Shown here: positions 1 to 62,789 of the stretch, piece after piece
Position numbering within the stretch: position 1 is the stretch's first letter
How the letters are laid out: each line of letters begins with the position of its first letter
Source of the DNA: Anolis carolinensis
Taxonomy: Eukaryota
Direction of reading: 5' to 3'
Assembly: GCF_035594765.1 (NCBI RefSeq)
Contig: NC_085843.1
Location: forward strand, 11,051,955 to 11,115,954
DNA length: 64,000 bases
Notes under the pieces: generated by a model
Database searches by the model: none
What the model was told of the DNA's origin: nothing
What the model saw: only the letters and a program-made list of their open reading frames with translations
Translations under genes and position numbers: made by a program

Positions 1-44
1 GTCAGGATCCCTCGTGGACACTGAAATCCATGGATGCTCAAGTC

Positions 45-276
45 GATGTGTTGTCAAAGGCTTTCATGGACAGGATCACAGGGTTGTTGTATGTTTTTCC
101 GGCTGTATGGCCATGTTCCAGAAGTATTCTCTCCTGATGTTTCGCCCACATCTATGGCAGGCATCCTCAGAAGTTGTGAGGTGAATTGAGGATGCCTGCC
201 ATAGATGTGGCTGAAACATCAGGAGAGAATACTTCTGGAACAAGGCCGTACAGCCCGGGAAACATACAACAACCCT
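45..276 (-). mobile_element. Penelope-like element (PLE) terminal fragment with inverted fold-back arms
   Basis: About 90-bp arms (80-169 and 187-276) are reverse complements, and one arm carries an extra ~35-nt tail. Flanked by an 11-bp TSD atgctcaagtc (34-44, 277-287). Confidence 0.8.
133..173 (-). ncRNA. Minimal type I hammerhead ribozyme motif (PLE type)
   Basis: Minus strand reads CUU CUGAGGA U GCCUGC CAUAGAU GUGGGC GAAA CAUC AGG: CUGANGA box, stem II, GAAA box, NUH triplet and a short stem I. Confidence 0.65.
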
Positions 277-649
277 ATGCTCAAGTCCTATTATACACAA
301 CTGCATAATAAAATGGTGTCCCTTATATAAAAGGGTGAAATCAAAAGTTGCCTCTAAAAATGTTCCAGTGTCATTTTCAATCAATGGATGATTCCATCTG
401 TGGATACAGATTTCATGGACGTGAAGGACCAACTGTATATGCAACCATATATGCACACATAATTAGTCAAAATACTGTTCAGTGCTAGAAGCACCTAAAT
501 TTCCACAATGAAAATAATGGCACTGTTCACAAGGGCAATTTTATCATTTTTCTAGGTTATGGTAGTGGTGGAGGTATGGCTATTGGCTAAGTGACTGACC
601 AGCCTTTCAACCCAGTACACTGCACTCCAGACAAAGAGAAACTATTTGA

Positions 650-8107: not shown

Positions 8108-8233
8108 CAGTGGTTCCCAACCTTTGGACCTCCACATTTTTTGCACTTCAACTCCCAGAAATGCCAGACACTTTACCAGCTGTTAGGAGCTGAAGTCCAG
8201 AACATCTGGAGGCCCAAAGGTTGGGAACCGCTG
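8108..8233. mobile_element. hAT-family MITE
   Basis: Terminal inverted repeats (TIRs) cagtggttcccaacctttgg / ccaaaggttgggaaccgctg. Perfect 8-bp TSD gtatagat (8100-8107, 8234-8241). Confidence 0.9.
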
Positions 8234-13308: not shown

Positions 13309-13627
13309 ATTGCCAGGAATGGACTCTTTAACCGTGGTCCTAGCTGAAGTCACTACAGTAAGACATTGTATGCATATCTATTGCCAGATATTAAAATGTG
13401 TAAGCCAAATGTAAGATGAGAATTAGAGTTAGATTGTCAGAATAGCTGAAGGGATCTTCTATGCACCTGGGCTGATAAGCAGTTGAAAATTTGGGAGGAG
13501 GGAGCTGAGAGTGATGTTATCAAGGTCATTTTCCAAGGAAGACAATGTGAATACCATGATAGAATGTTTAGATGAATATAGGCACATGTAATGGTAGGAA
13601 TGATATTAACCAATGAACATAATACTG

Positions 13628-13830
13628 GGTCATTGTATGTTTTCTGGGCTGTATGGCCATGTTCCAGAAGTATTCTCTCCTGACATTTCGCCCACATCTA
13701 CGGCAGGCATCCTCAGAGGTTGTGAGGTGAGCGAAACATCAGGAGAGAATTCTCCGGGAACATGGCCATACAGCCCGGAAAACACACAACAACTCTGTGA
13801 TTCCAGCCATGAAAGCCTTCAACAACACAT
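13628..13830 (+). mobile_element. Penelope-like element terminal fragment with inverted arms
   Basis: Fold-back arms plus the tail gtgattccagccatgaaagccttcaacaacacat. 14-bp TSD tgaacataatactg (13614-13627, 13831-13844). Confidence 0.85.
13679..13719 (-). ncRNA. Minimal type I hammerhead ribozyme motif (PLE type)
   Basis: Minus strand reads CCU CUGAGGA U GCCUGC CGUAGAU GUGGGC GAAA U GUC AGG, with a GUC triplet and CCU/AGG stem I. Confidence 0.7.
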
Positions 13831-14524
13831 TGAACATAATACTGCACACTTTTGAAATATACTGCCTTTATAAAGATGCGTACCCGGTGCTACCTTTTAG
13901 TCCTGATGAATAGCATGTAGTTTTGCTTTTGCTCCTTTTTCAATAAACTTATCTTTTTGTTTGAAAGTAAGAATTTTATTTGAAAGACAGGGTAGGTCTA
14001 CATCTAATATCACAAAGGCTGTTAATACCAGCTATCAAGAAGGCTATCATCACCATGCAACTCATGGAGCTATGTGATGGTTGTGCTTCACCACCCTTCT
14101 GCTGGAAACCAACTGATGATGAATCTGCAGTGTGCCTTCTTCTAGCCCCATGGCACAGTGGAGAGTGGACTGTAATTGCTTCCACAGTCCCAGGGAATCA
14201 AGTGGTACATCAAAAGTTCTAATGATGCTTAATAGAATGCAATGCCTTGGCAGGTTTAACTTTCCATCCTATCAACCATCTTTTAATTTTTTGCATCAAC
14301 ATAATCCCATGAAAAGTTTTAAAGAACTCAAAATTTTACATGCTATGCTACCTCTCAGATTCATGTTCTGTCTGTTGTTATTGACCAGAGTTTTGGACCA
14401 TCAATTATTTGGATTCTATTCAAGAATACAGGGATCTCTGAGATATACTCCTATGATTTGGCATATTCTAAGTAGTATCAGCTTTTGTGCCACTATGATG
14501 CTATCTATGGTGATTTCGTTCAAA

Positions 14525-17998: not shown

Positions 17999-18665
17999 AT
18001 AGAATCACAGAATAGTAGAGTTGGAAGAGACCTCATGGGCCATCCAGTCCAACCCCCTGCCAAGAAGAGGAAATCGCATTCAAAGCACCCCTGACAGATG
18101 GCCATCCAGCCTCTGTTTAAAAGCCTCCAAAGAAGGAGCCTCCACCACAGTCCGGGGGAGAGAGTTCCACTGCTGAACAGCTCTCACAGTGAGGAAGTTC
18201 TTCCTGATGTTCAGGTGGAATCTCCTTTCCTGTAGTTTGAAGCCATTGTTCCATTGCGTCCTAGTCTGTAGGGCAGCAGAAAACAAGCTTGCTCCCTCCT
18301 CCTTATGACTTCCCCTCACATATTTGTACATGGCTATCATGTCTCCTCTTAGCCTTCTCTTCTGCAGACTAAACATGCCCAGCTCCTCATAGGGCTTGTT
18401 CTCCAGACCTTTGATCATTTTAGTTGCCCTCCTCTGGACGCTTTCCAGCTTGTCAACATCTCCCTTCAACTGTGGTGCCCAAAATTGGACACAGTATTCC
18501 AGGTGTGGTCTGACCAAGGCAGAATAGAGGGGGAGCATAACTTCCCTGGATCTAGACGCTATTCCCCTATTGATGCAGGCCAGAATCCCATTGGCTTTTT
18601 TAGCTGCCGCATCACATTGCTGGCTCATGTTTAACTTGTTGTCCACAAGGACTCCAAGATCTTTT
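17999..18665 (-). mobile_element. Young 5'-truncated CR1 LINE (ORF2 C-terminus and 3' UTR)
   Basis: ORF 18080-18646 reads ...[19 protein letters not shown]...[16 protein letters not shown]...[15 protein letters not shown]. The 3' end is (attct..)n-type. Confidence 0.95.
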
Positions 18666-19839: not shown

Positions 19840-20934
19840 GTGGGCAGAACCCTGCCACCTTGAACATGTTTTCTGTTTTAGCTTCTAAGAAATCACCATT
19901 TTTTTAAAAAAAAAAAAATCTCCATATCCCTATCATTGGAAAATGCTTCCTGCAAAACAACGTTTAGTTAAAAAGTGATCAGAGGAATACTGTGAGAGCT
20001 AAGGAAAGGGAATCCCCTAACTGTACATTTACACATCTGGGGGCTATCACTTCGTAGACACAAAATTGTAGCCAAAGATACTACCCTGATGCTAAACAAA
20101 CAAACATCTGCCAGGGTGGGAAGAAACATTGGACCATGAATGGGTTCCCTAGAGATTGCCAAAATGAGATTGCCAAAATGCAGCTATGTTACAAATCTGG
20201 TGCTCCGTAGTCAGATGTAATTTGTGCTGGGAGTGCTCGAACTGAGTCCTAAGGGAGATCTTTTAGAAGTTTGATGTTTAGTAAGGTTTAATTCTGCTGA
20301 GATGCATATCCTCATAAAGCAACAACAGCGTTGCAACTGCTGAGCAAATTATTCCTATTAATACCACTTATTTCTGCAATGCTACTGATATTTGTGGTGT
20401 TTTGTAAAAGGTAACATGAATCAAAGTGGAGTTGGAAGTTACATTTTCAGGCTTTGGTCATAAGAGAGGTCTTTGTGACAAGTTCGGGAAGTCCCTGCTT
20501 ATCTGATGGGTTAAGGACCACAGCACTGTCTGAAAGTAGAATTCAACCAAATCTATAGGTAATATGAAGAAATTACATATTTATGTAATAAATATGAGGA
20601 AATTATGGGGGATTGGGGTTGCCTGTGTATTTATGTATGCTGCCTGCAAAAAAAACAAATGTCTTGGTACCTCCTCGCCCCCACCCCTCCAGTTTATGAG
20701 CATGGCAGTCATTCACGAGCAAGGCCAAGGAAAGAAGACCTGATGAAAGAGCAGATTCTCTCACTGGAACTTGTCTGTTCATTGCAAGTGTCAAAACAGT
20801 AAGTTGTTGGAAAGCAAGATGTTGAAAGGTGAGGAAAATTTGTTATGAAATCCCATCTCTTAATGTGGAAATACTTTCGGCCAGGTCTCCATATTTCTTT
20901 CCCTGTTTTCGGCGTTCAAACATTATAGCTTTGC

Positions 20935-21620
20935 TTGTGTATTCCTACATGGCAGGGAGTTGAACTGGATATCCCTTGTAGTTTCTTCAAACTCTATGAT
21001 AGAATCATAGAGTTTGAAAAAACCACAAGGGCCCTCCAATCTGCCAGGCAGGAAGACACAACCAAATCCCTCCCAATAGGTGACCCTGCAACCTCTGTTG
21101 AAAAGCTCCAGAGAAGGAGATTGCACTGGACTCCCAGGCAGCATGTTCCACTGTTGAACAACTTTTATTATCAGGAATTTGTTTCTAATGTGGTAGAGGC
21201 TCCTTCTTTGGAGGCTTTTAAACAGAGACTGGATGACCATTTATCGGAGGTGCTTTAAATGAGATTTTCCTGCTTATTGGTTGGACTGGATGGCCCACAA
21301 GGTCTCTTCCAACTCCTGGATTCCATGATTCTATGAGTGTTTAGGTTGAATCTCTTTTACTTCATTGCTCTGTGTCCTTATCTTTAGAGCAGCAAAATTA
21401 AGTTTGCCTCCACCTCAGTACAAATATTTAAGGATAACTACCATGCCTTCCCTCAACCTTCTCTTCTATAAGCTAAACATTTCCCAAGCCACTCCTCATA
21501 GAGATTCATAGCTCCTGGACTTTGGACCACTTCTCTAGACACATTCCAGCTTGTCAATATCCTTGTTGCCCAGAACGGGACATAGTATTCTGACCAATAG
21601 AGAATAGAGTGGTACAATTA
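20935..21620. mobile_element. Cluster of CR1 3' fragments: + at 20935-21000, - at 21001-21620, and a younger + insert at 21189-21335
   Basis: CR1 3' UTR motifs occur in both orientations. The insert encodes [22 protein letters not shown]. Confidence 0.8.
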
Positions 21621-22045: not shown

Positions 22046-22180
22046 CAGTGGTTCCCAACCTGGGGTCCCCCGATAATTTTGGCCTACAACTCCCAGAAAT
22101 CCCAGCCAGTTTACCAGCTGTTAGGATTTCTGCGAGTTGAAGATCAAAAACATCTGGGGGGCCCAGGCTAAGAACCACTG
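22046..22180. mobile_element. hAT-family MITE
   Basis: TIRs cagtggttcccaacctggg / cccaggctaagaaccactg. 8-bp TSD gtctagac / gtctagag. Related to 8108-8233. Confidence 0.9.
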
Positions 22181-22294: not shown

Positions 22295-23346
22295 TGTCAG
22301 TTAGCCCAGGGTCATACACATTAATCAATTCAGGAGAGGCAAAGTACAGAAATAGTCAGAATTCAGTCCAGGGTTCAAGCCAAACAGTATCAACAAATCC
22401 AGACCCTCTTCCAAAGTGTATTCAAATCCAGCAAGAGTCAAGGGAGATGTTGACAAGCTGGAAAGCATCCAGAGGAAGGCGACTAAAATGATCAAGGGTC
22501 TGGAGAACAAGCCCTATGAGGAGCAGCTTAAAGAACTAGGCATGTTTAGCCTGCAGAAGAGAAGGCTGAGAGGAGACATGATTACTATGTACAAATATGT
22601 GACGGGAAGTCATAGGGAGGAGGGAGCAAGCTTTTTTTCTGCTGCCCTGCAGACTAGGACGCGGAATAATGGCTTCAAACTACAGGAAAGGAGATTCCAT
22701 CTGAACATCAGGAAGAATTTCCTCACTGTGAGAGCTGTTCGACAGTGGAACTCTCTCTCTCTCCCGGACTGTGGTGGAGGCTCCTTCTTTGGAGGCTTTT
22801 AAGCACAGGCTGGATGGCCATCTGTCGGGGGTGCTTTGAATGCAATTTCCTGCTTCTTGGCAGGAGGTTGGACTTGATGGCCCATGAGGTCTCTTCCAAC
22901 TCTACGATTCTCTGATTCTAAGGTTCAAGGCAAGTATAGTCAATCCAACAAGAGTAGAAGTTCAAGGCAAGTGTAGTCAATCCAACGAGAGTCAAGGCAA
23001 GAGTTCCACCATCAGGGATTCCGCCTGTGTAGTTGAACAAAAATTGATCCCAGCACAGAACCAGCCCAGACTTTAGCTCTTTATGCCACTTCTCCAAGTG
23101 CTCTCACCCGTTGGCTCTATGCTGAACCAACCAATGAGATCTTCTCAACTGAATGCTCTCAATCCTCAACTGCCGTCGAGTTGTGATGCTTAACTCTTCC
23201 ACTGAGAGTTCCTGATCTTGCCTTGACTCGCCCTCTTTATTCTACAGATAGTATTTCCAGGATCAGGTTGCTGCTCCAACTCTGCTGCAGACTCAGATGC
23301 CGTGCAGAGAGGCCCTTCATTGTCATCGTCAGCACTTAGCCTGACA
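22295..23346 (-). mobile_element. Probable Gypsy-type solo LTR interrupted by a CR1
   Basis: TGTCAG...CTGACA termini and an internal ~37-bp tandem unit (gttcaaggcaagtatagtcaatccaacaagagt). No TSD is visible and the orientation is tentative. Confidence 0.5.
22441..22920 (+). mobile_element. Young 5'-truncated CR1 LINE
   Basis: Encodes [47 protein letters not shown]... and is near-identical to 17999-18470 in the opposite orientation. Confidence 0.95.
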
Positions 23347-30335: not shown

Positions 30336-31817
30336 CTGGTCTTGGAGGAGAAAAAAAAATTACAATTGTACAATGGGACTTGAGTGTCTACACATGCTGA
30401 TATCTATGGAAGGACCTGGAAGCAACTCCGGCAGATACTAAAGATCCACTGTGATGTTTCAATAGCGTTGTTTCCTTAACTGTGTTTTATCTGTTGTGAT
30501 TTCTATTGTTTTAACTGCCTTTTGCTTTTACTAGCATTGGGAGCTGCCTTGGGCCCCCAACTGGGAGAAATGTTGGATATAAATTAACTAACTAACTAAA
30601 TAAAATTGACTCTCTTTGCCTCCTAAAGCCATATTTTATACCAGGCTGTTGTTTTAGCTACAGATGTGAAAATCATTCCTTTTTGACTGTGTTGAGTTTC
30701 CCTGAATCCCATCTCCACATTTCTTCTTGTCCATATTTCGCATCAGGTTACAAGATTTTGTGTCTTAATTCCTGCATGGAAATTCATGCCCATCCTTAAC
30801 ACATATTTTCCTCATGCTTATATTTGTTTTTTATTTGCAATTTTGCCTTGCTCACGTAATATTTCCCTGTTGGCTAAAACATGTTTCTGCAAGGTTTTTT
30901 TTTTCATTTTGACACTGTATTTCCCCATTTTAGCACATTTGGCCATTCACACTTAAAAATATGTGCATTGATTTGTCCGCATTTTATTTCACAGAAATGT
31001 TCCGCAAGCCTCTGTGCGAATGCTTGAGGCGAGGTGAGAATTTTCCATCAGCAAGTCCTGGGAAATGCAAAACGACTACTTTTCTCGAGATTCTCAAGCC
31101 CAATTAGATATATTTGAGATCTATGGAGGAGTTGAGAACCAAAACCAGACTTTGAGGGAGTAGACATTGCACACCCCATGTATAGATTTAGTTCCATGTA
31201 GAATCTGTAAGAAAACATGGATCTAATGGGTACTGTTATATTCTCCTGGCAGAGGCCAAAAGAAGGCACTAGACAAAGAAGGATTTTATTTTATTGAAGG
31301 AGGGGGAGTTGAAGGAGGAAAACAATTTTCCTTGTTTTCACTGGTTATTTCCTCTCCCTACTCCTCATTTCATAAACAATGGTTGTTTCCATGCCGGTGA
31401 CATAGGTGTGTAAGGGAATAACAGGAAAACAGGAAAATTATTTTACTCCTTCAACCCTTTCTGTAAAATGAACATCCCAGGTATAGAAGGAGTGTACTGA
31501 GGTCTCCAGTATTATTTTTTTCAGTGAGGATTTTCAAAAGACCAGATCATGAATATAGGACTAATGACACAGAAGAGTCATCAGTCCGCTATTTTCTGTT
31601 TTATATGTTGACTGACAGCTTGCCTTTAGCAGGTATTCCCTAAATCATGTAGTAAAAATTCCTTACATGCATTATTATTTCCTGGAGTGATTCCTAATTA
31701 ATAATGAGCCATACGTGCACAAACAAAAATATCAGAATTATGAATATTCTCCAATGGAGGAAGTTGATAAATTCACATGACTGGTCTGGATGCAGACCTT
31801 CATACAATATGGATTTC

Positions 31818-31919
31818 TGGGTTGCTGTGTGTTTTCCGGGCTATATGGCCATGTTCCAGAAGCATTCGCTCCTGATGTTTAGCCCACATCTGTGACAAGC
31901 ATCCTCAGAGGTTGTGAGG
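31818..31919 (-). mobile_element. Penelope-like element single arm with a mutated hammerhead motif
   Basis: Same arm as 13628-13727, but the GAAA box reads TAAA on the minus strand. Confidence 0.8.
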
Positions 31920-32091
31920 CATATTGGTTTCTGTTACTATATTATTTACCTCTGCTTTTCTATTATACGTTTAAAAGCACAATTTTATTTATTACCCTCT
32001 CCCTTTTGGCCTCCGCACGGATAATAAGCAATGGCATTACCCACTAAGGGATAGAATTTTATTAAAAAATCTATACAACTGAAGCTGTTTT

Positions 32092-32225
32092 GGGTTGCTG
32101 TGAGTTTTCTGGACTGTATGGTCATGTTCCAGAAACAGGAGATAATGCTCTGGAACATGGCCATACAGTCCGGAAAACTCACAAGAACCCAGTGATTCAG
32201 ACCATGAAAGTCTTCAACAACACAT
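32092..32225 (+). mobile_element. Short Penelope-like fold-back insertion
   Basis: About 40-bp inverted arms plus tail. Degenerate TSD tgaagctgttttg / tgaggctgctttg. Confidence 0.8.
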
Positions 32226-33159
32226 TGAGGCTGCTTTGTTTGGTTTTTACATCTCTTTGTGCCGATCCACTTTTCTGCAAATGAGTCGAACTACTGGTAT
32301 TTGTATATATGCAAAAGCATCAGTAAAGATTGAATATCATTCTTATCCAGAACCACTTGATTTTTTTCTCATGGAAACTGTTCCGCGAAGGATGCCTCTA
32401 AATGTTCAACAGTCTCAGGAAAAAAAATGCAAAGCATGAAACAATACAAAATAGGTTGCCAGGAGGTTACTTTCCCCCTAGGGCTGCAGGATCAAAATTT
32501 CATAACAAAGGGATGCTTTTGAGCTGTGGGGCTTGACATCCATTATGCACTCCGAAACAAATGAGGGGCATCTATTATGAATAAGAGGCATCCATTATGT
32601 CCCTTGAAAGCAAGAAGTGGGGAAATAAGGGACATCCATCCCAAGATGATAGCAAATTCTCCTTACAATAAATGCACCCAATAATCCCTCATGCTTTTCT
32701 TTCTACACATTCCCGATTTGCACCATGTACCGTTCACTCATTCAATTATCTGCGGTCTGAGAAACATTGAAATACAGAGAGCGAGCTCTTCCATCAACAA
32801 GACAGAGTGCAACTTTATACTCACAGAGCTACACAGCAGTTTCACAAAGCTGAATTGTGACAGCATACAACCGACTGTGCACAGCACAACTATGATTAAT
32901 ATGCAATGAAGCGCAATGCAAGACCATGTGCAATGCGTGACCATGCGCTTCACACGTAACTCGCTTTTGCAACCATAGAATGAATATAGTTGTTCTGCAT
33001 CACACAAAAATGTCCAATTGTTTTAGTATGATGCATAAGACATGCGTAAGACACCAACAGATTGCCAGACAAATGTTAAGAAAATATTCAAGAAGATTTG
33101 CCCTCCATGAAAAGACCTTGAAGTCAAGAGACAGTGTATCCAGTCTTCTAAATTGGATA

Positions 33160-36808: not shown

Positions 36809-37905
36809 AATTTGAATTTCCATCCTCTGAAAAAAAAGTATCGGAAACGATGTAACTTGTTTTTAATGAAAAATGAAAACCAGCCCTGTCCTCCTGTCAA
36901 CTGGAAAAGCCCTTAATGAAGGCACAGTCTTTGCTGGCACTCTTTGGCAATAAGAAATGCAAGAGATTATCAATAATGCATTCGCAAGGCTACCCGAGCG
37001 CTATTTTTAAAGCAAATAATTCACTCCTCCCAACCCCGAAACCAAGCCATCCCATAAAAGAAATGCCACAACTCCTCAAGAGGCTTCAAGACATATATAG
37101 AGCCCCATTGCTGTACAAATGAGGTCAACTGGAGCTGTAAGTCACAAGGCATTTGCTCCAGAGTAATCCCATTAAAGTAAATCATCTCTCTCCTGGAAAG
37201 AGTGGGATGCAGAGTCCAGCCAAGCAGAAGGATAAGTCAACACGTGGGAGAAATTTATGCAGCTAGACAAGAGTTATCCCACATGGAAGATTGCCAGGGC
37301 ATAGGAATAAGGTTCTTCTGTCCCAGAGCCAAGATCTTTGGGATCTTTGAATACAGAAACATCTACAACAGCTGAACAGGCAGCAAATTAGTTCCTATTG
37401 GAAATCCGTTCCTTAAGCAGTTTCTCTCGGAAACAGACGGAACTGACATTTGTTGGATTTGTGCTTTAACGTGAACGTACACAATTTACTTCCTGAACCA
37501 CGATACAAATTGAAACACAGTTAAATATTGATATTTACGCATCCTGAATTTTGTGGTGCAGTTTCCGAAATGCAAAGCATATACACACACACAGGTACAA
37601 ACAAAGATCAATAGAATAGTGGCTTTCATTAATGCAAAAAAGAAAATATGCTTTATACATGGGGAAGTAGATGTAAAAATGCCCACATTAGGAGAAAAAA
37701 ATATGTACAGAAATCTTTCCACATTTACTGTGCTGAAACCTGACTGTCAATACATTGTATGCTGATTCTTTATCTTTGCAATCACCATTTTAGTTAGGTT
37801 TGCCTCAGTGAAAACTGGAGAGGGTTCTTAACTTTAACGGAGGTGCAAAATAGAAAGTTTCACCAGGTGTTGCTTATTACATGGTTGCGTAACAGTCCAT
37901 ACATG

Positions 37906-38028
37906 GATTGCTGTGAGTTTTCTGGATTGTATGGCCATGTTCCAGAAGCATTCTGGAACATGGCCATACAACCTGGAAAACTCACAGCAACGCAGTGATT
38001 CCAGCCATGAAAGCCTTTGTCAATACAT
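37906..38028 (+). mobile_element. Short Penelope-like fold-back insertion
   Basis: About 40-bp inverted arms around a tiny loop (ttccagaa gca ttctggaa) plus tail. 12-bp TSD agtccatacatg (37894-37905, 38029-38040). Confidence 0.85.
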
Positions 38029-60260: not shown

Positions 60261-62789
60261 ACTCTTCACAAAACCAACAATGAAAAATGAAAAAAAAAAA
60301 CAACTTGCAAAGGTTGAGATCTTACAAAGGTGGACCGTATGTCTCCGTGTGCCAAGATATCTATTTCTCATGAAAGAAAGATAGGAGAATATTTTAATAT
60401 CTCCAAAGCTAGGTCTGGGGGCATTTGAGGAGAAGGAATGGCCAACAGGAATCAAAACTTCCACTAAAATCCCATTTCGGATAATGATACTTACCATAGT
60501 ATTTTTTTCGGTTTTGTAGGGTTTTTAAAATGTCCTTCTTCCTTGGTTGTAACTATACTTGGAGAGCCAGACTGGTCCAAATCCCTGCGAAGCCATGGAA
60601 ATCCACTGAGTGACCTGGAGCAAGTCCCACTCTCTCAGCCTAAGAGGAAGGCAATGGCACACATTCCCTGAATTGAAAATCCTAGGATAGGGTCCGCATA
60701 AGTTGGAGACGGTTCAAACACAGATAACAACATCAGACCATTGACTCTATATAGATAGCATGGAGACAAATTTCTCAATCTCAAATGATTGAGGGAGTAA
60801 GTTGATGGTCTTTAAACATTTAGCAATAAATCTGCAAAAAATTAGAAAGTAGAATACAGGCTGAGTAGGACTTCACCAGTGGGATTCTGCCACTATGTGT
60901 ACGTCTTTGACTTATTCTGTCACTAATGCAATCAGAACATATTATGTCAAGTATGTGCAAATATGTTCAATACATTTAGGTCTTTTGGGTTACCCAATGT
61001 TAATTCTCAAAGTGTAGAAACTCTCTGATAAGGTCGCCATACATTTGAGTTTGCTTGTTGGCATATAACAGCAACAATCATTCTTCCAGAAGAAACATTT
61101 TCTAGGTCATCCCACTCATTGGATGAATCTCTTCAGAGGAGACCTTTTCCATGATCTGGAGATTGAGAGCTAGATTTTAATGCCATTTGATTGGTCAAAG
61201 CCAGAACTCAGGATGTAAAGACTAATGCAAATTAAATAAAGAACATGGGGCATAATGGTACCTTAAAGGGCAGATCATTACAGTTATACAACCATCACCT
61301 TTGGAAATATAAACTCTTACTCCTAATTGTATCCACACACACAAATATCCTCATCCTTGACAAGAAAAGAGATTCCCGTACAGCCTATTGAGAAAAATGT
61401 TTTTGGAAAATGGTAACTTTGCAAAAAAAGACAGAAAGACTCCAGAAGTGTGAAAAGCTATTGAAGCAATGTGCAAAGCCTTTCATATTATTGCCAATCA
61501 GGGAGATTTTTTAAAAAGTATTTGTTCTTGCAGAAAGAGCAATAACTTATTTATTCTTGCAGAAATAAACAAAATAATTACACCCCTAATAAATACCAAC
61601 ACAGTGCCTTAAAGCCTTGTCTCTTGGATGTCTCAACCTTCTGTGAGGACTTCAAATGCAAACTGTGGAGACGCCTTTTCTCTCTGACTTTCTTCCATCA
61701 AGGAAAAGTCACTAGAGACTCAGGGTCTCTCCCCTCAACTTGCAAAAGTCTGAACTTGCAGATGCGGATCAATGTGATATGGAAATCTAGTCTTCTCATT
61801 GTGCCATTAGCAACTGCTTCCACATGAAAGGAATTCATAGCTTGTTTGGAATATTTAAATTGAGTTGACACAGCCATGGTTTTGCAGACCTCATTTTTCA
61901 AGGCAGAGGAAGGGGGGGCAAAGCAACTATGAATCATTTCCATTTAACAATCCCTCAGAGAAATGCATTTGCAACCCTCGGTGCTTCAGCTCTGCCAGAA
62001 CAGCAGGAACTCTTTCATGCATGTGGGTGGAGGGACACACTCTGGACTCCACCAGTCTAATATAGACGTTAGAAACATTGCTTTACTATGCATTTTTAAA
62101 GGCTATCCTTGTGGGGATCAGCTAAAAAAAGCAACCAAAGCTCTCGTTTTACAAAGAGAAGGGCAGAAGGTAGACATTTATATTTAAAAATGTCAACAGA
62201 ATTGGCACTTTGCTGGAAGAAAGTAATTAATAAAAGGTGGCAGGAAGTCCAAATCCGAATACTGGGAATGTTTAGTCTGAAGAAGAGAAGACTTGTAGAG
62301 GAGTGTTCTTCAAATATCAGAAAGGCTCACATATAAAAGAGGGCAAAGAGTTGTCCTCTGCTATTCCACAAGGTAAGGACTAGCTCTGATGGGCTGAAGC
62401 AGTTCATTTCAGTGAATCTATTCTGGGTTTCCATCACAACATTAAAGGATCTATCTAAGTTGCTGAACTTAGATTCATCACTTTGGACAGCTCCCAGCTC
62501 TTCTTCAATAGCTTCAGCACATTGGATAGCTCAAGCATGGATAAGCATGGTGTTTTGGTTTTCATCTCCCACAGTTCCTAACAGCCAGTAAGCTGGCTGG
62601 GATTTCTGAGAATTAAAGTCCAAAACACCTGGAGGGCCAAAGAAGTCTGGGATACCTCCTCCGGGCAACTCTTTGGGTAAATACTTGAAGAAAGGTACAA
62701 AAATTCATATTTGGTCTGAGACTAACTTTGCGATTAAAGACAAATGCTTTGGAGGGAAGAGCATTTTGACAGTATAATTAATTACTATA

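What the first reader, a model, noticed from the sequence alone, without database searches (positions are those of the whole stretch)
13614..13844. Penelope-like fold-back insertion with the best-preserved minimal hammerhead motif
Seen: the minus strand of 13679-13719 reads CCU-CUGAGGA-U-GCCUGC-CGUAGAU-GUGGGC-GAAA-U-GUC-AGG. That gives both catalytic boxes, a 6-bp stem II with two G-U pairs, a GUC triplet and a 3-bp stem I, inside a cassette bounded by a 14-bp TSD. Established: Penelope-like elements carry minimal type I hammerheads whose helix III is reduced to a short palindrome and which are thought to work as dimers. Inference: this locus could be a self-cleaving RNA module in any minus-strand transcript crossing it. 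The opposite arm covers only the 3' side of the motif.
Basis: partly seen in the sequence, partly recalled or inferred. Interest (0 to 1): 0.7.

Follow-up and report, generated by a model that had tools for sequence, protein, structure and literature searches.

The report
Decayed head-to-head Poseidon retrotransposon stub
This 231-base mirror-image insert is one mutated stub of a very abundant, already studied lizard jumping gene (Poseidon); its self-cutting RNA motif is real but predicted not to cut here, and the stub was likely made when both cut DNA strands primed copying of the element's RNA.

Summary
The locus is two 5'-truncated ends of Poseidon_Ac (a Penelope-like element, PLE), joined head to head. 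Intact 846-aa RT/GIY-YIG copies in this genome start their ORF inside this hammerhead, and their first 135 coding bases match the published template (compared by eye). The motif is the best of three complete ones in the window but ordinary genome-wide: 12,566 exact intact copies exist, and this one has a CpG-type change in helix III. Self-cleavage here is unlikely. The opposite arm pairs with the motif's 3' half (28 kcal/mol penalty). The published intact ribozyme cuts only with the element's protein and is dispensable for insertion in vitro. The family shows a strict layout: one end near +84, the other near +118 (78 of 78 TSD-bounded insertions; genome-wide 16 two-tailed loci against 1,796 matches). 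TSDs are 12-13 bp, the tail end has short microhomology, and either arm can be longer. This favours coordinated priming from both target strands. The scan has noted this layout before, in this and other genomes. Verdict: already known, low interest.

The parts
13614..13627 (+). Left copy of the target-site duplication TGAACATAATACTG; its last 4 bases overlap the left arm's end
13624..13728 (-). Left (tail-less) arm: Poseidon element positions -18 to about +84/+87 relative to the ORF's ATG; 93 of 102 bases identical to an intact copy
13679..13719 (-). Minimal type I hammerhead: stem I CCU/AGG, CUGAGGA, bulged U, 6-bp stem II, GAAA, helix III word AUGU (family ACGU; CpG-type change at 13685), presumptive cut between 13682 and 13681
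13708..13710 (-). ATG that starts the element's 846-aa ORF in intact copies; its A is A9 of the ribozyme core
13724..13729 (.). Central head-to-head junction with 2-5 nt overlap between the two arms
13727..13837 (+). Right (tail-bearing) arm: element +16 to +126, 98 of 111 bases identical to an intact copy; lacks the CUGAGGA box; helix III word ACAU
13796..13829 (+). The PLE 'tail' (+85 to +118), present on this arm only
   Evidence: PMC11167929
13831..13844 (+). Right copy of the TSD; its first 7 bases TGAACAT are also the element's own +120..+126 (microhomology)

Best explanation
The locus is a mutated, head-to-head pair of short ends of the Poseidon_Ac Penelope-like retrotransposon, likely made in one insertion event, and its hammerhead is a passenger that is predicted not to cut. 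Shown: family identity, arm coordinates, TSD, the helix III change, and the family-wide layout. Inferred mechanism: the element's RT/GIY-YIG protein, probably as a dimer, nicks both target strands 12-14 bp apart, leaving 3' overhangs. One 3' end primes reverse transcription near +118 (here helped by up to 7 nt of complementarity) and the other near +84. The +84 cDNA probably ran off the RNA's 5' end at -18, the +118 cDNA stopped at +16, and host repair joined the two cDNA ends by microhomology. The ribozyme is copied only because it lies between the RNA's start and the two priming sites. After insertion it decayed by CpG mutation, and in any minus-strand transcript it would be buried in a hairpin of about 75 bp.
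For: Identity: 9 intact 846-aa ORFs begin at the ATG inside the exact motif; RVT_1 E 1.7e-13; GVY-x9-YIG at residue 700; +1..+135 of an intact copy matches the PAc template printed in PMC11167929 (by eye). Inactivity. Layout: 78 of 78 TSD-bounded head-to-head insertions have one end near +84 and one near +118, 51 of 51 without the query-like set. Genome-wide, 21 matches (16 loci) have two tails against 1,796 with a tail on one side and reach to +83 on the other; 15 of 15 loci from a tail-agnostic pattern have exactly one tail. TSD is 12-13 bp in 24 of 34 young insertions, with T-rich outward flanks at both ends. The tail-less arm reaches further 5' in 24, the tail arm in 17, equal in 8 of 49, so neither arm is a copy of the other. 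Tail-end microhomology is above a permutation null in two sets (1.82 vs 0.85, 0 of 5000; 1.67 vs 0.81, P 0.0012). 5' ends cluster at -18/-20 (10 of 92 sampled arms; loose ends at -20 and -18). TTAGGG repeats follow that end on the cDNA strand at 6 loci, against 1 match in the opposite sense, itself one of the 6. In vitro, PAc cuts and extends both strands and has two RT starts that define the tail.
Against: Folding energies are equilibrium predictions; even the intact element RNA disfavours the hammerhead fold by 8.9-10.3 kcal/mol yet cuts with protein. No transcription start was mapped; the -18 cluster is partly an older subfamily diverging upstream, and the cluster could be an RT stop or a microhomology hotspot. 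Microhomology at the +84 end did not replicate (P 0.023, then 0.89). PMC11167929 reports priming at a non-homologous site in vitro and no difference in RT start between strands. Sixteen two-tailed loci exist; 2 look like secondary inverted duplications that include host flank, 1 has a TSD, and the rest are unexplained. Pairs without a detectable TSD were not counted in the 78, and many sampled arms are solitary. No empty site of this locus was seen.
Confidence: 0.85

Rival explanations
1. The locus is an active self-cleaving module in a minus-strand host transcript, working as a dimer or with help from PAc protein.
For: Both catalytic boxes, U16.1, C17 and all 9 stem pairs are intact. U15.2-G16.2 can wobble-pair. 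The copy at 133-173 on the same strand carries ACAU, which is exactly complementary to AUGU. Active elements exist, so the protein may be present.
Against: Freeing the motif for a partner costs 29.5 kcal/mol here and 57.0 kcal/mol at the other copy. Minimal PLE hammerheads showed no activity as monomers and low activity as dimers (PMC4209133). No cut-site reads were found in anole RNA-seq (PMC11167929). There is no excess of arms starting at the cut site (2 of 92 at +29). No transcript was shown.
Confidence: 0.04
2. The fold-back arose by self-priming: one cDNA (or an antisense template, as proposed in PMC3846280) folded back and was copied, and the ends were then trimmed by the endonuclease.
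For: The two arms of an insertion share subfamily variants (28 of 28 at +70; 13 of 13 at +40 within the young subfamily, null 7.5). Many junctions fall on the near-palindrome CCTCWGAGG. A few loci are true fold-backs that include host flank.
Against: Simple cDNA fold-back needs the tail arm to reach at least as far 5' as the other arm. Here and in 24 of 49 insertions it does not. Both outer ends sit at fixed positions, as expected of the two RT starts, and are bounded by one TSD. Telomere repeats are added at the inner end. The antisense-template version with later trimming is not strictly excluded.
Confidence: 0.08
3. The cassette is a non-autonomous unit (MITE- or SINE-like) that moves as a whole palindrome.
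For: Thousands of similar short palindromes exist (1,260 loci for one strict pattern), and a -12/-12 junction class recurs.
Against: Central junctions differ from locus to locus, and arm lengths run continuously from about 40 bases to several kb, including full ORFs. There is no fixed terminal inverted repeat beyond the arms.
Confidence: 0.03

Closest known systems
Poseidon_Ac / PAc, Penelope/Poseidon-clade PLE of the green anole (Frangieh et al. 2024, PMC11167929; main text and methods read, parts 1-3 of 4; supplement 3 read, supplement 2 gave no usable text, the .gbk file could not be read)
   Same: Same sequence family; ATG inside the hammerhead; cut site 26 nt after the start codon; ends at the tail boundaries; AT-rich target.
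   Different: This copy is a 217-base truncated, 88-91% identical remnant with AUGU in helix III. The paper's main text does not discuss inverted insertions or TSDs and reports non-homologous priming, whereas genomic tail ends show 1-7 nt microhomology.
Minimal hammerheads of metazoan PLEs (Cervera and De la Pena 2014, PMC4209133; parts 1-2 of 4 read)
   Same: Type I, long helix II, short helix I, extra base between 9 and 10.1, G10.1-C11.1, no loop 3; mostly found as single motifs in truncated PLEs, sometimes on opposite strands.
   Different: Positions 15.2/16.2 are not palindromic in this copy (U/G), and only one arm holds a full motif.
EN+ PLE insertions with inverted pLTR and tail (Arkhipova et al. 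2013, PMC3846280; Craig et al. 2021, PMC8557442; passages read)
   Same: Head-to-head inverted 5'-truncated copy, a 30-40 bp tail often at one end only, TSD of about 8-14 bp.
   Different: These papers describe the tail as optional and ascribe it to endonuclease resolution, and the inversion to self-priming. Here the one-tail rule is quantified at about 99% and the arm lengths argue for two separately primed cDNAs.
LINE-1 twin priming (recalled, no call)
   Same: The second target strand primes a second cDNA, giving an inversion joined by microhomology.
   Different: L1 twin priming inverts non-overlapping parts of one RNA. Here both arms copy the same region from two fixed starts about 34 nt apart.

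Membership tests
Poseidon_Ac (Penelope/Poseidon PLE) | Sequence identity to the element's pLTR/ORF start | tested here: met
   93 of 102 and 98 of 111 bases identical to an intact copy; the intact copy matches the published template over +1..+135 by eye
Poseidon_Ac (Penelope/Poseidon PLE) | [quoted passage not shown] | tested here: met
   846-aa ORFs; RVT_1 above cut-off; DKG, YVDD and GVY-x9-YIG motifs. Pfam gave no GIY-YIG hit; that domain rests on the motif.
Poseidon_Ac (Penelope/Poseidon PLE) | Tandem/inverted pLTR layout with tail and TSD | tested here: met
Minimal type I hammerhead of PLEs | CUGANGA and GAAA boxes, U16.1, H17 | tested here: met
Minimal type I hammerhead of PLEs | Helix II of 6 or more bp with G10.1-C11.1 and a bulged base after A9; short helix I | tested here: met
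   6 of 6 and 3 of 3 pairs; stem II P 0.96-1 in the isolated 41-mer. In the family, 7 of 64 arms carry a CA variant that turns two wobbles into Watson-Crick pairs; no two-sided compensatory change was seen.
Minimal type I hammerhead of PLEs | Palindromic 15.2/16.2 for dimeric helix III | tested here: not met
   AUGU in this copy; ACGU in 28 of 64 sampled arms and in intact elements
Minimal type I hammerhead of PLEs | Core conserved above neighbouring positions | tested here: inconclusive
   0.959 vs 0.920 or 0.942, P 0.015 or 0.037; small effect, and the alignments are BLAST-selected
Active self-cleaving ribozyme at this locus | Hammerhead fold accessible in the transcript | tested here: not met
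   28.2 kcal/mol penalty for the whole cassette, 23.4 for the nascent chain
Active self-cleaving ribozyme at this locus | Measured cleavage and transcription | not testable with these tools
   No run on record as RNA; contigs only
Rfam hammerhead families | Covariance-model match | tested here: not met
   None among 37 matches at E<=5; probably because helix III is absent (inference)

The most novel reading that the evidence does not exclude
Poseidon inserts by an obligately asymmetric double priming. One dimeric RNP, probably on a single RNA, hands the +118 start to one nicked strand and the +84 start to the other. That would make the PLE 'tail' simply the offset between two RT active sites, make head-to-head duplication the normal product, and make the thousands of 200-base palindromes run-off copies from the transcript's 5' end. 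Short primer-template pairing would help only the tail-side start.
Probability: 0.45. Interest if true: 0.55.

Novelty: already known. Interest (0 to 1): 0.2.

Why it matters
As a locus it matters little: it is one decayed copy among tens of thousands, of an element whose ribozyme has already been assayed. Its value is as a fossil of the insertion reaction. How PLEs make inverted repeats and a one-sided tail is stated as unresolved in PMC8557442, and the steps after priming as unvalidated in PMC11167929. The near-absolute one-tail rule, the 12-13 bp stagger, the concordant arms and the tail-end microhomology give specific predictions for the existing in vitro PAc system. I did not find this model in the library with the searches (listings only), but subscription papers and figure-only supplements were not visible, and earlier AI notes of this scan reached a similar reading.

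Tried and rejected
Rfam scan: only miRNA-hairpin look-alikes below their gathering scores, no hammerhead. Host gene: 95 of the 146 stop-to-stop frames of 75 aa or more were scanned with Pfam; one weak hit below cut-off; two long frames look like LINE RT fragments by eye. Genic context and transcribed strand stay unknown. Expression: no RNA holder listed. Contigs of 4 runs cover parts of the flanks, and X2 and X15 cover both outer junctions, but no empty-site joint appeared among the joints shown, 156 not shown. A genomic record of ribozyme cleavage (arms starting at +30): no peak, 2 of 92 sampled arms at +29, and not among the six loose ends shown, 266 not shown. PDB sequence search of the intact ORF: only weak AbiK matches. 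Other hammerhead families in the sampled 1.264 Mb: none. Heterodimer rescue by the copy at 133-173: complementary, but both copies are hairpin-buried. The 2026 retrozyme preprint (10.64898/2026.07.22.740005; passages only) has no occurrence of 'tail', 'head-to-head' or 'Anolis'; its supplements are closed. PMC2377424 (passages only) places the Drosophila Penelope promoter internally and does not fix the start site for this family. Look-ups of earlier findings by place and by sequence returned nothing.

Full report
Numbering. Element positions are given relative to the A of the ORF's ATG (+1; the base before it is -1). Searches count upstream positions one higher (-17 there is -18 here).

1. 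Observation. The motif, the inverted arms and the 14-bp direct repeat are at the stated coordinates. The cassette folds into one long hairpin (-120.5 kcal/mol, z -10.8), whereas the 55-nt motif region alone is not more stable than its shuffles. Rfam has no hammerhead match in the window. A descriptor for minimal hammerheads finds 31 hits in 1.264 Mb of sampled genome, all from this family, and none in three shuffles, so the motif is real. The window holds four insertions of the family; three arms span the whole motif, and this is the best of them.

2. Identity. Arms of this repeat adjoin RT-GIY-YIG coding sequence. A protein search of the genome returned many near-identical copies with long open frames (150 scored of 3,623 candidates). 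In nine fetched loci, 9 of 28 motif hits begin an 846-aa ORF at the ATG inside the hammerhead. The ORF matches RVT_1 (E 1.7e-13) and has DKG, YVDD and GVY-x9-YIG motifs. Its first 135 coding bases match, by eye, the Poseidon_Ac template printed in PMC11167929. The window's left arm is element -18..+84/87 on the minus strand (93 of 102 identical) and the right arm is +16..+126 on the plus strand (98 of 111).

3. The ribozyme at this locus. The exact intact 41-mer occurs 12,566 times in the genome. I sampled 1.264 Mb: nine 100-kb blocks at round coordinates, one 200-kb block near the start of C1 where one search had listed hits, and the window with 50 kb on each side. Of 113 arms, 64 span the motif, 41 have intact cores and 17 are fully intact; the helix III word is ACGU in 28, ACAU in 16 and AUGU in 11, which is the pattern of CpG decay on either strand. 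Core positions are slightly more conserved than base-matched ones (0.959 vs 0.920, or 0.942 after dropping subfamily sites; P 0.015 and 0.037). I read this as constraint on source elements, not on inserted copies (inference). In a minus-strand transcript the antisense of the right arm comes first; forming stems I and II with an open core costs 28.2 kcal/mol, against 6.9 for the arm alone and 8.9-10.3 for intact element RNA. PMC11167929 found that the intact ribozyme cuts only with PAc protein, that catalytic mutants insert normally, and that no RNA-seq reads start or end at the cut. PMC4209133 found no monomer activity and low dimer activity for a minimal PLE hammerhead. Transcription of this locus and its genic context could not be shown. 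The motif is therefore best read as an inactive passenger.

4. How the cassette was made. From 345 hits to the element's 3' region I kept opposite-strand pairs sharing a word of 8 or more bases at their outer ends: 78 insertions, all with one end near +84 and the other near +118 (27 query-like, 10 perfect-motif, 6 RT-hit, 17 hand-picked long, 18 from sampled blocks). Pairs without such a word and solitary arms were not counted. Genome-wide patterns gave 1,796 matches with a tail on one arm and the other arm reaching +83, and 21 matches at 16 loci with tails on both. Two of the 16 look like later inverted duplications including host DNA, one has a TSD, and the rest are unexplained. The first 15 loci of a tail-agnostic pattern (1,260 loci) all have one tail; some of them are loci already counted. 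Among 34 young insertions (both ends at least 95% identical, simple-repeat TSDs dropped), TSDs are 12-13 bp in 24 and both outward flanks are T-rich. Tail ends share more bases with the element's continuation than a permutation null (mean 1.82 vs 0.85, 0 of 5000). This replicated in 12 of 22 new insertions that passed the filters (1.67 vs 0.81, P 0.0012), while the short end did not replicate. This locus has 7 such bases. Without the query-like set, the tail-less arm reaches further 5' in 24, the tail arm in 17, and they are equal in 8 of 49. A cDNA folding back on itself cannot give a tail-bearing arm that is the 5'-shorter one, as at this locus. The two arms share subfamily variants far above chance (28 pairs; 13 of 13 at +40 within the young subfamily), as expected from one RNA or one source locus, although arm-to-arm conversion could also produce this. 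Inner ends cluster at -18/-20 (10 of 92 arms), about 30 bases below a TATA-like run, and six loci carry TTAGGG repeats on the cDNA strand at that point; this suggests free cDNA 3' ends from run-off, but no start site was mapped. With the in vitro finding that PAc cuts and extends both strands from two starts and is predicted to be a dimer, the best model is priming from both nicked strands, one at each start, followed by microhomology joining.

5. Comparison and novelty. The family, its hammerhead, the inverted layout and the often one-sided tail are all in print. The finding is a known thing. The quantified one-tail rule, the arm-length argument and the tail-end microhomology go somewhat beyond the text I read, which ascribes the inversion to self-priming and the tail to endonuclease resolution or to two RT starts, without pairing them. 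Searches did not list a paper stating the paired model; figures and unreadable supplements of PMC11167929 may bear on it. Earlier notes of this scan, seen after my reading was recorded (then), describe the same layout in this and other genomes and propose two-strand priming and run-off; they are not independent support.

6. Verdict. Observation confirmed; Penelope assignment supported; activity at this locus not supported. Novelty: already known. Interest 0.2; the family-level mechanism would merit 0.55 if confirmed (probability 0.45).

Noticed in passing
window 43-282, 31811-32228 and 37905-38028: Three more head-to-head insertions of the same family, each with one tail-bearing and one short arm; none has an intact hammerhead.
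   Followed up: yes
window 133-173 (minus) with 13679-13719 (minus): The two CpG-decay products of the helix III word, AUGU and ACAU, are mutually complementary, so two decayed copies could in principle restore a 4-bp helix III in trans; here both are hairpin-buried.
   Followed up: partly
L221-L226, central junctions; also L018: Telomeric TTAGGG repeats are inserted at the inner end of an arm, on the cDNA strand, suggesting telomerase acting on the free cDNA end during repair.
   Followed up: partly
L201-L212 (G000 C1 and C2): Multi-kb head-to-head arrays of intact, 99-100% identical 846-aa copies with clean TSDs: the element is probably still active.
   Followed up: partly
L236 and L237 (about 1490-2100): Inverted duplications that run through the tail into host flank, apparently secondary hairpin-type rearrangements of an insertion.
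   Followed up: partly
L102-L104; sampled block C1:3.04 Mb; joints: Head-to-tail arrays of short hammerhead-bearing units (220 bp, 154 bp, and joints from about +84 or +122 back to about -18). Same-strand tandem motifs are the arrangement in which dimer cleavage could occur, so they are better ribozyme candidates than this locus.
   Followed up: no
Upstream of element -18 in an older subfamily (L107, L110; loose end at 8124): The sequence reads pyrimidine-rich then CAG directly before -18, like a 3' splice site; the young subfamily has AT there. Drosophila Penelope has an intron ending at helix I (PMC4209133).
   Followed up: no
window 18080-18664 (-) and 22356-22802 (+): Long frames that look like C-terminal fragments of a CR1-type LINE reverse transcriptase (label recalled; no Pfam hit).
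   Followed up: no
window 20930-21066, 22071-22155 and 62548-62630: Other hairpin-forming stretches with weak Rfam miRNA matches below their gathering scores; probably other repeats.
   Followed up: no
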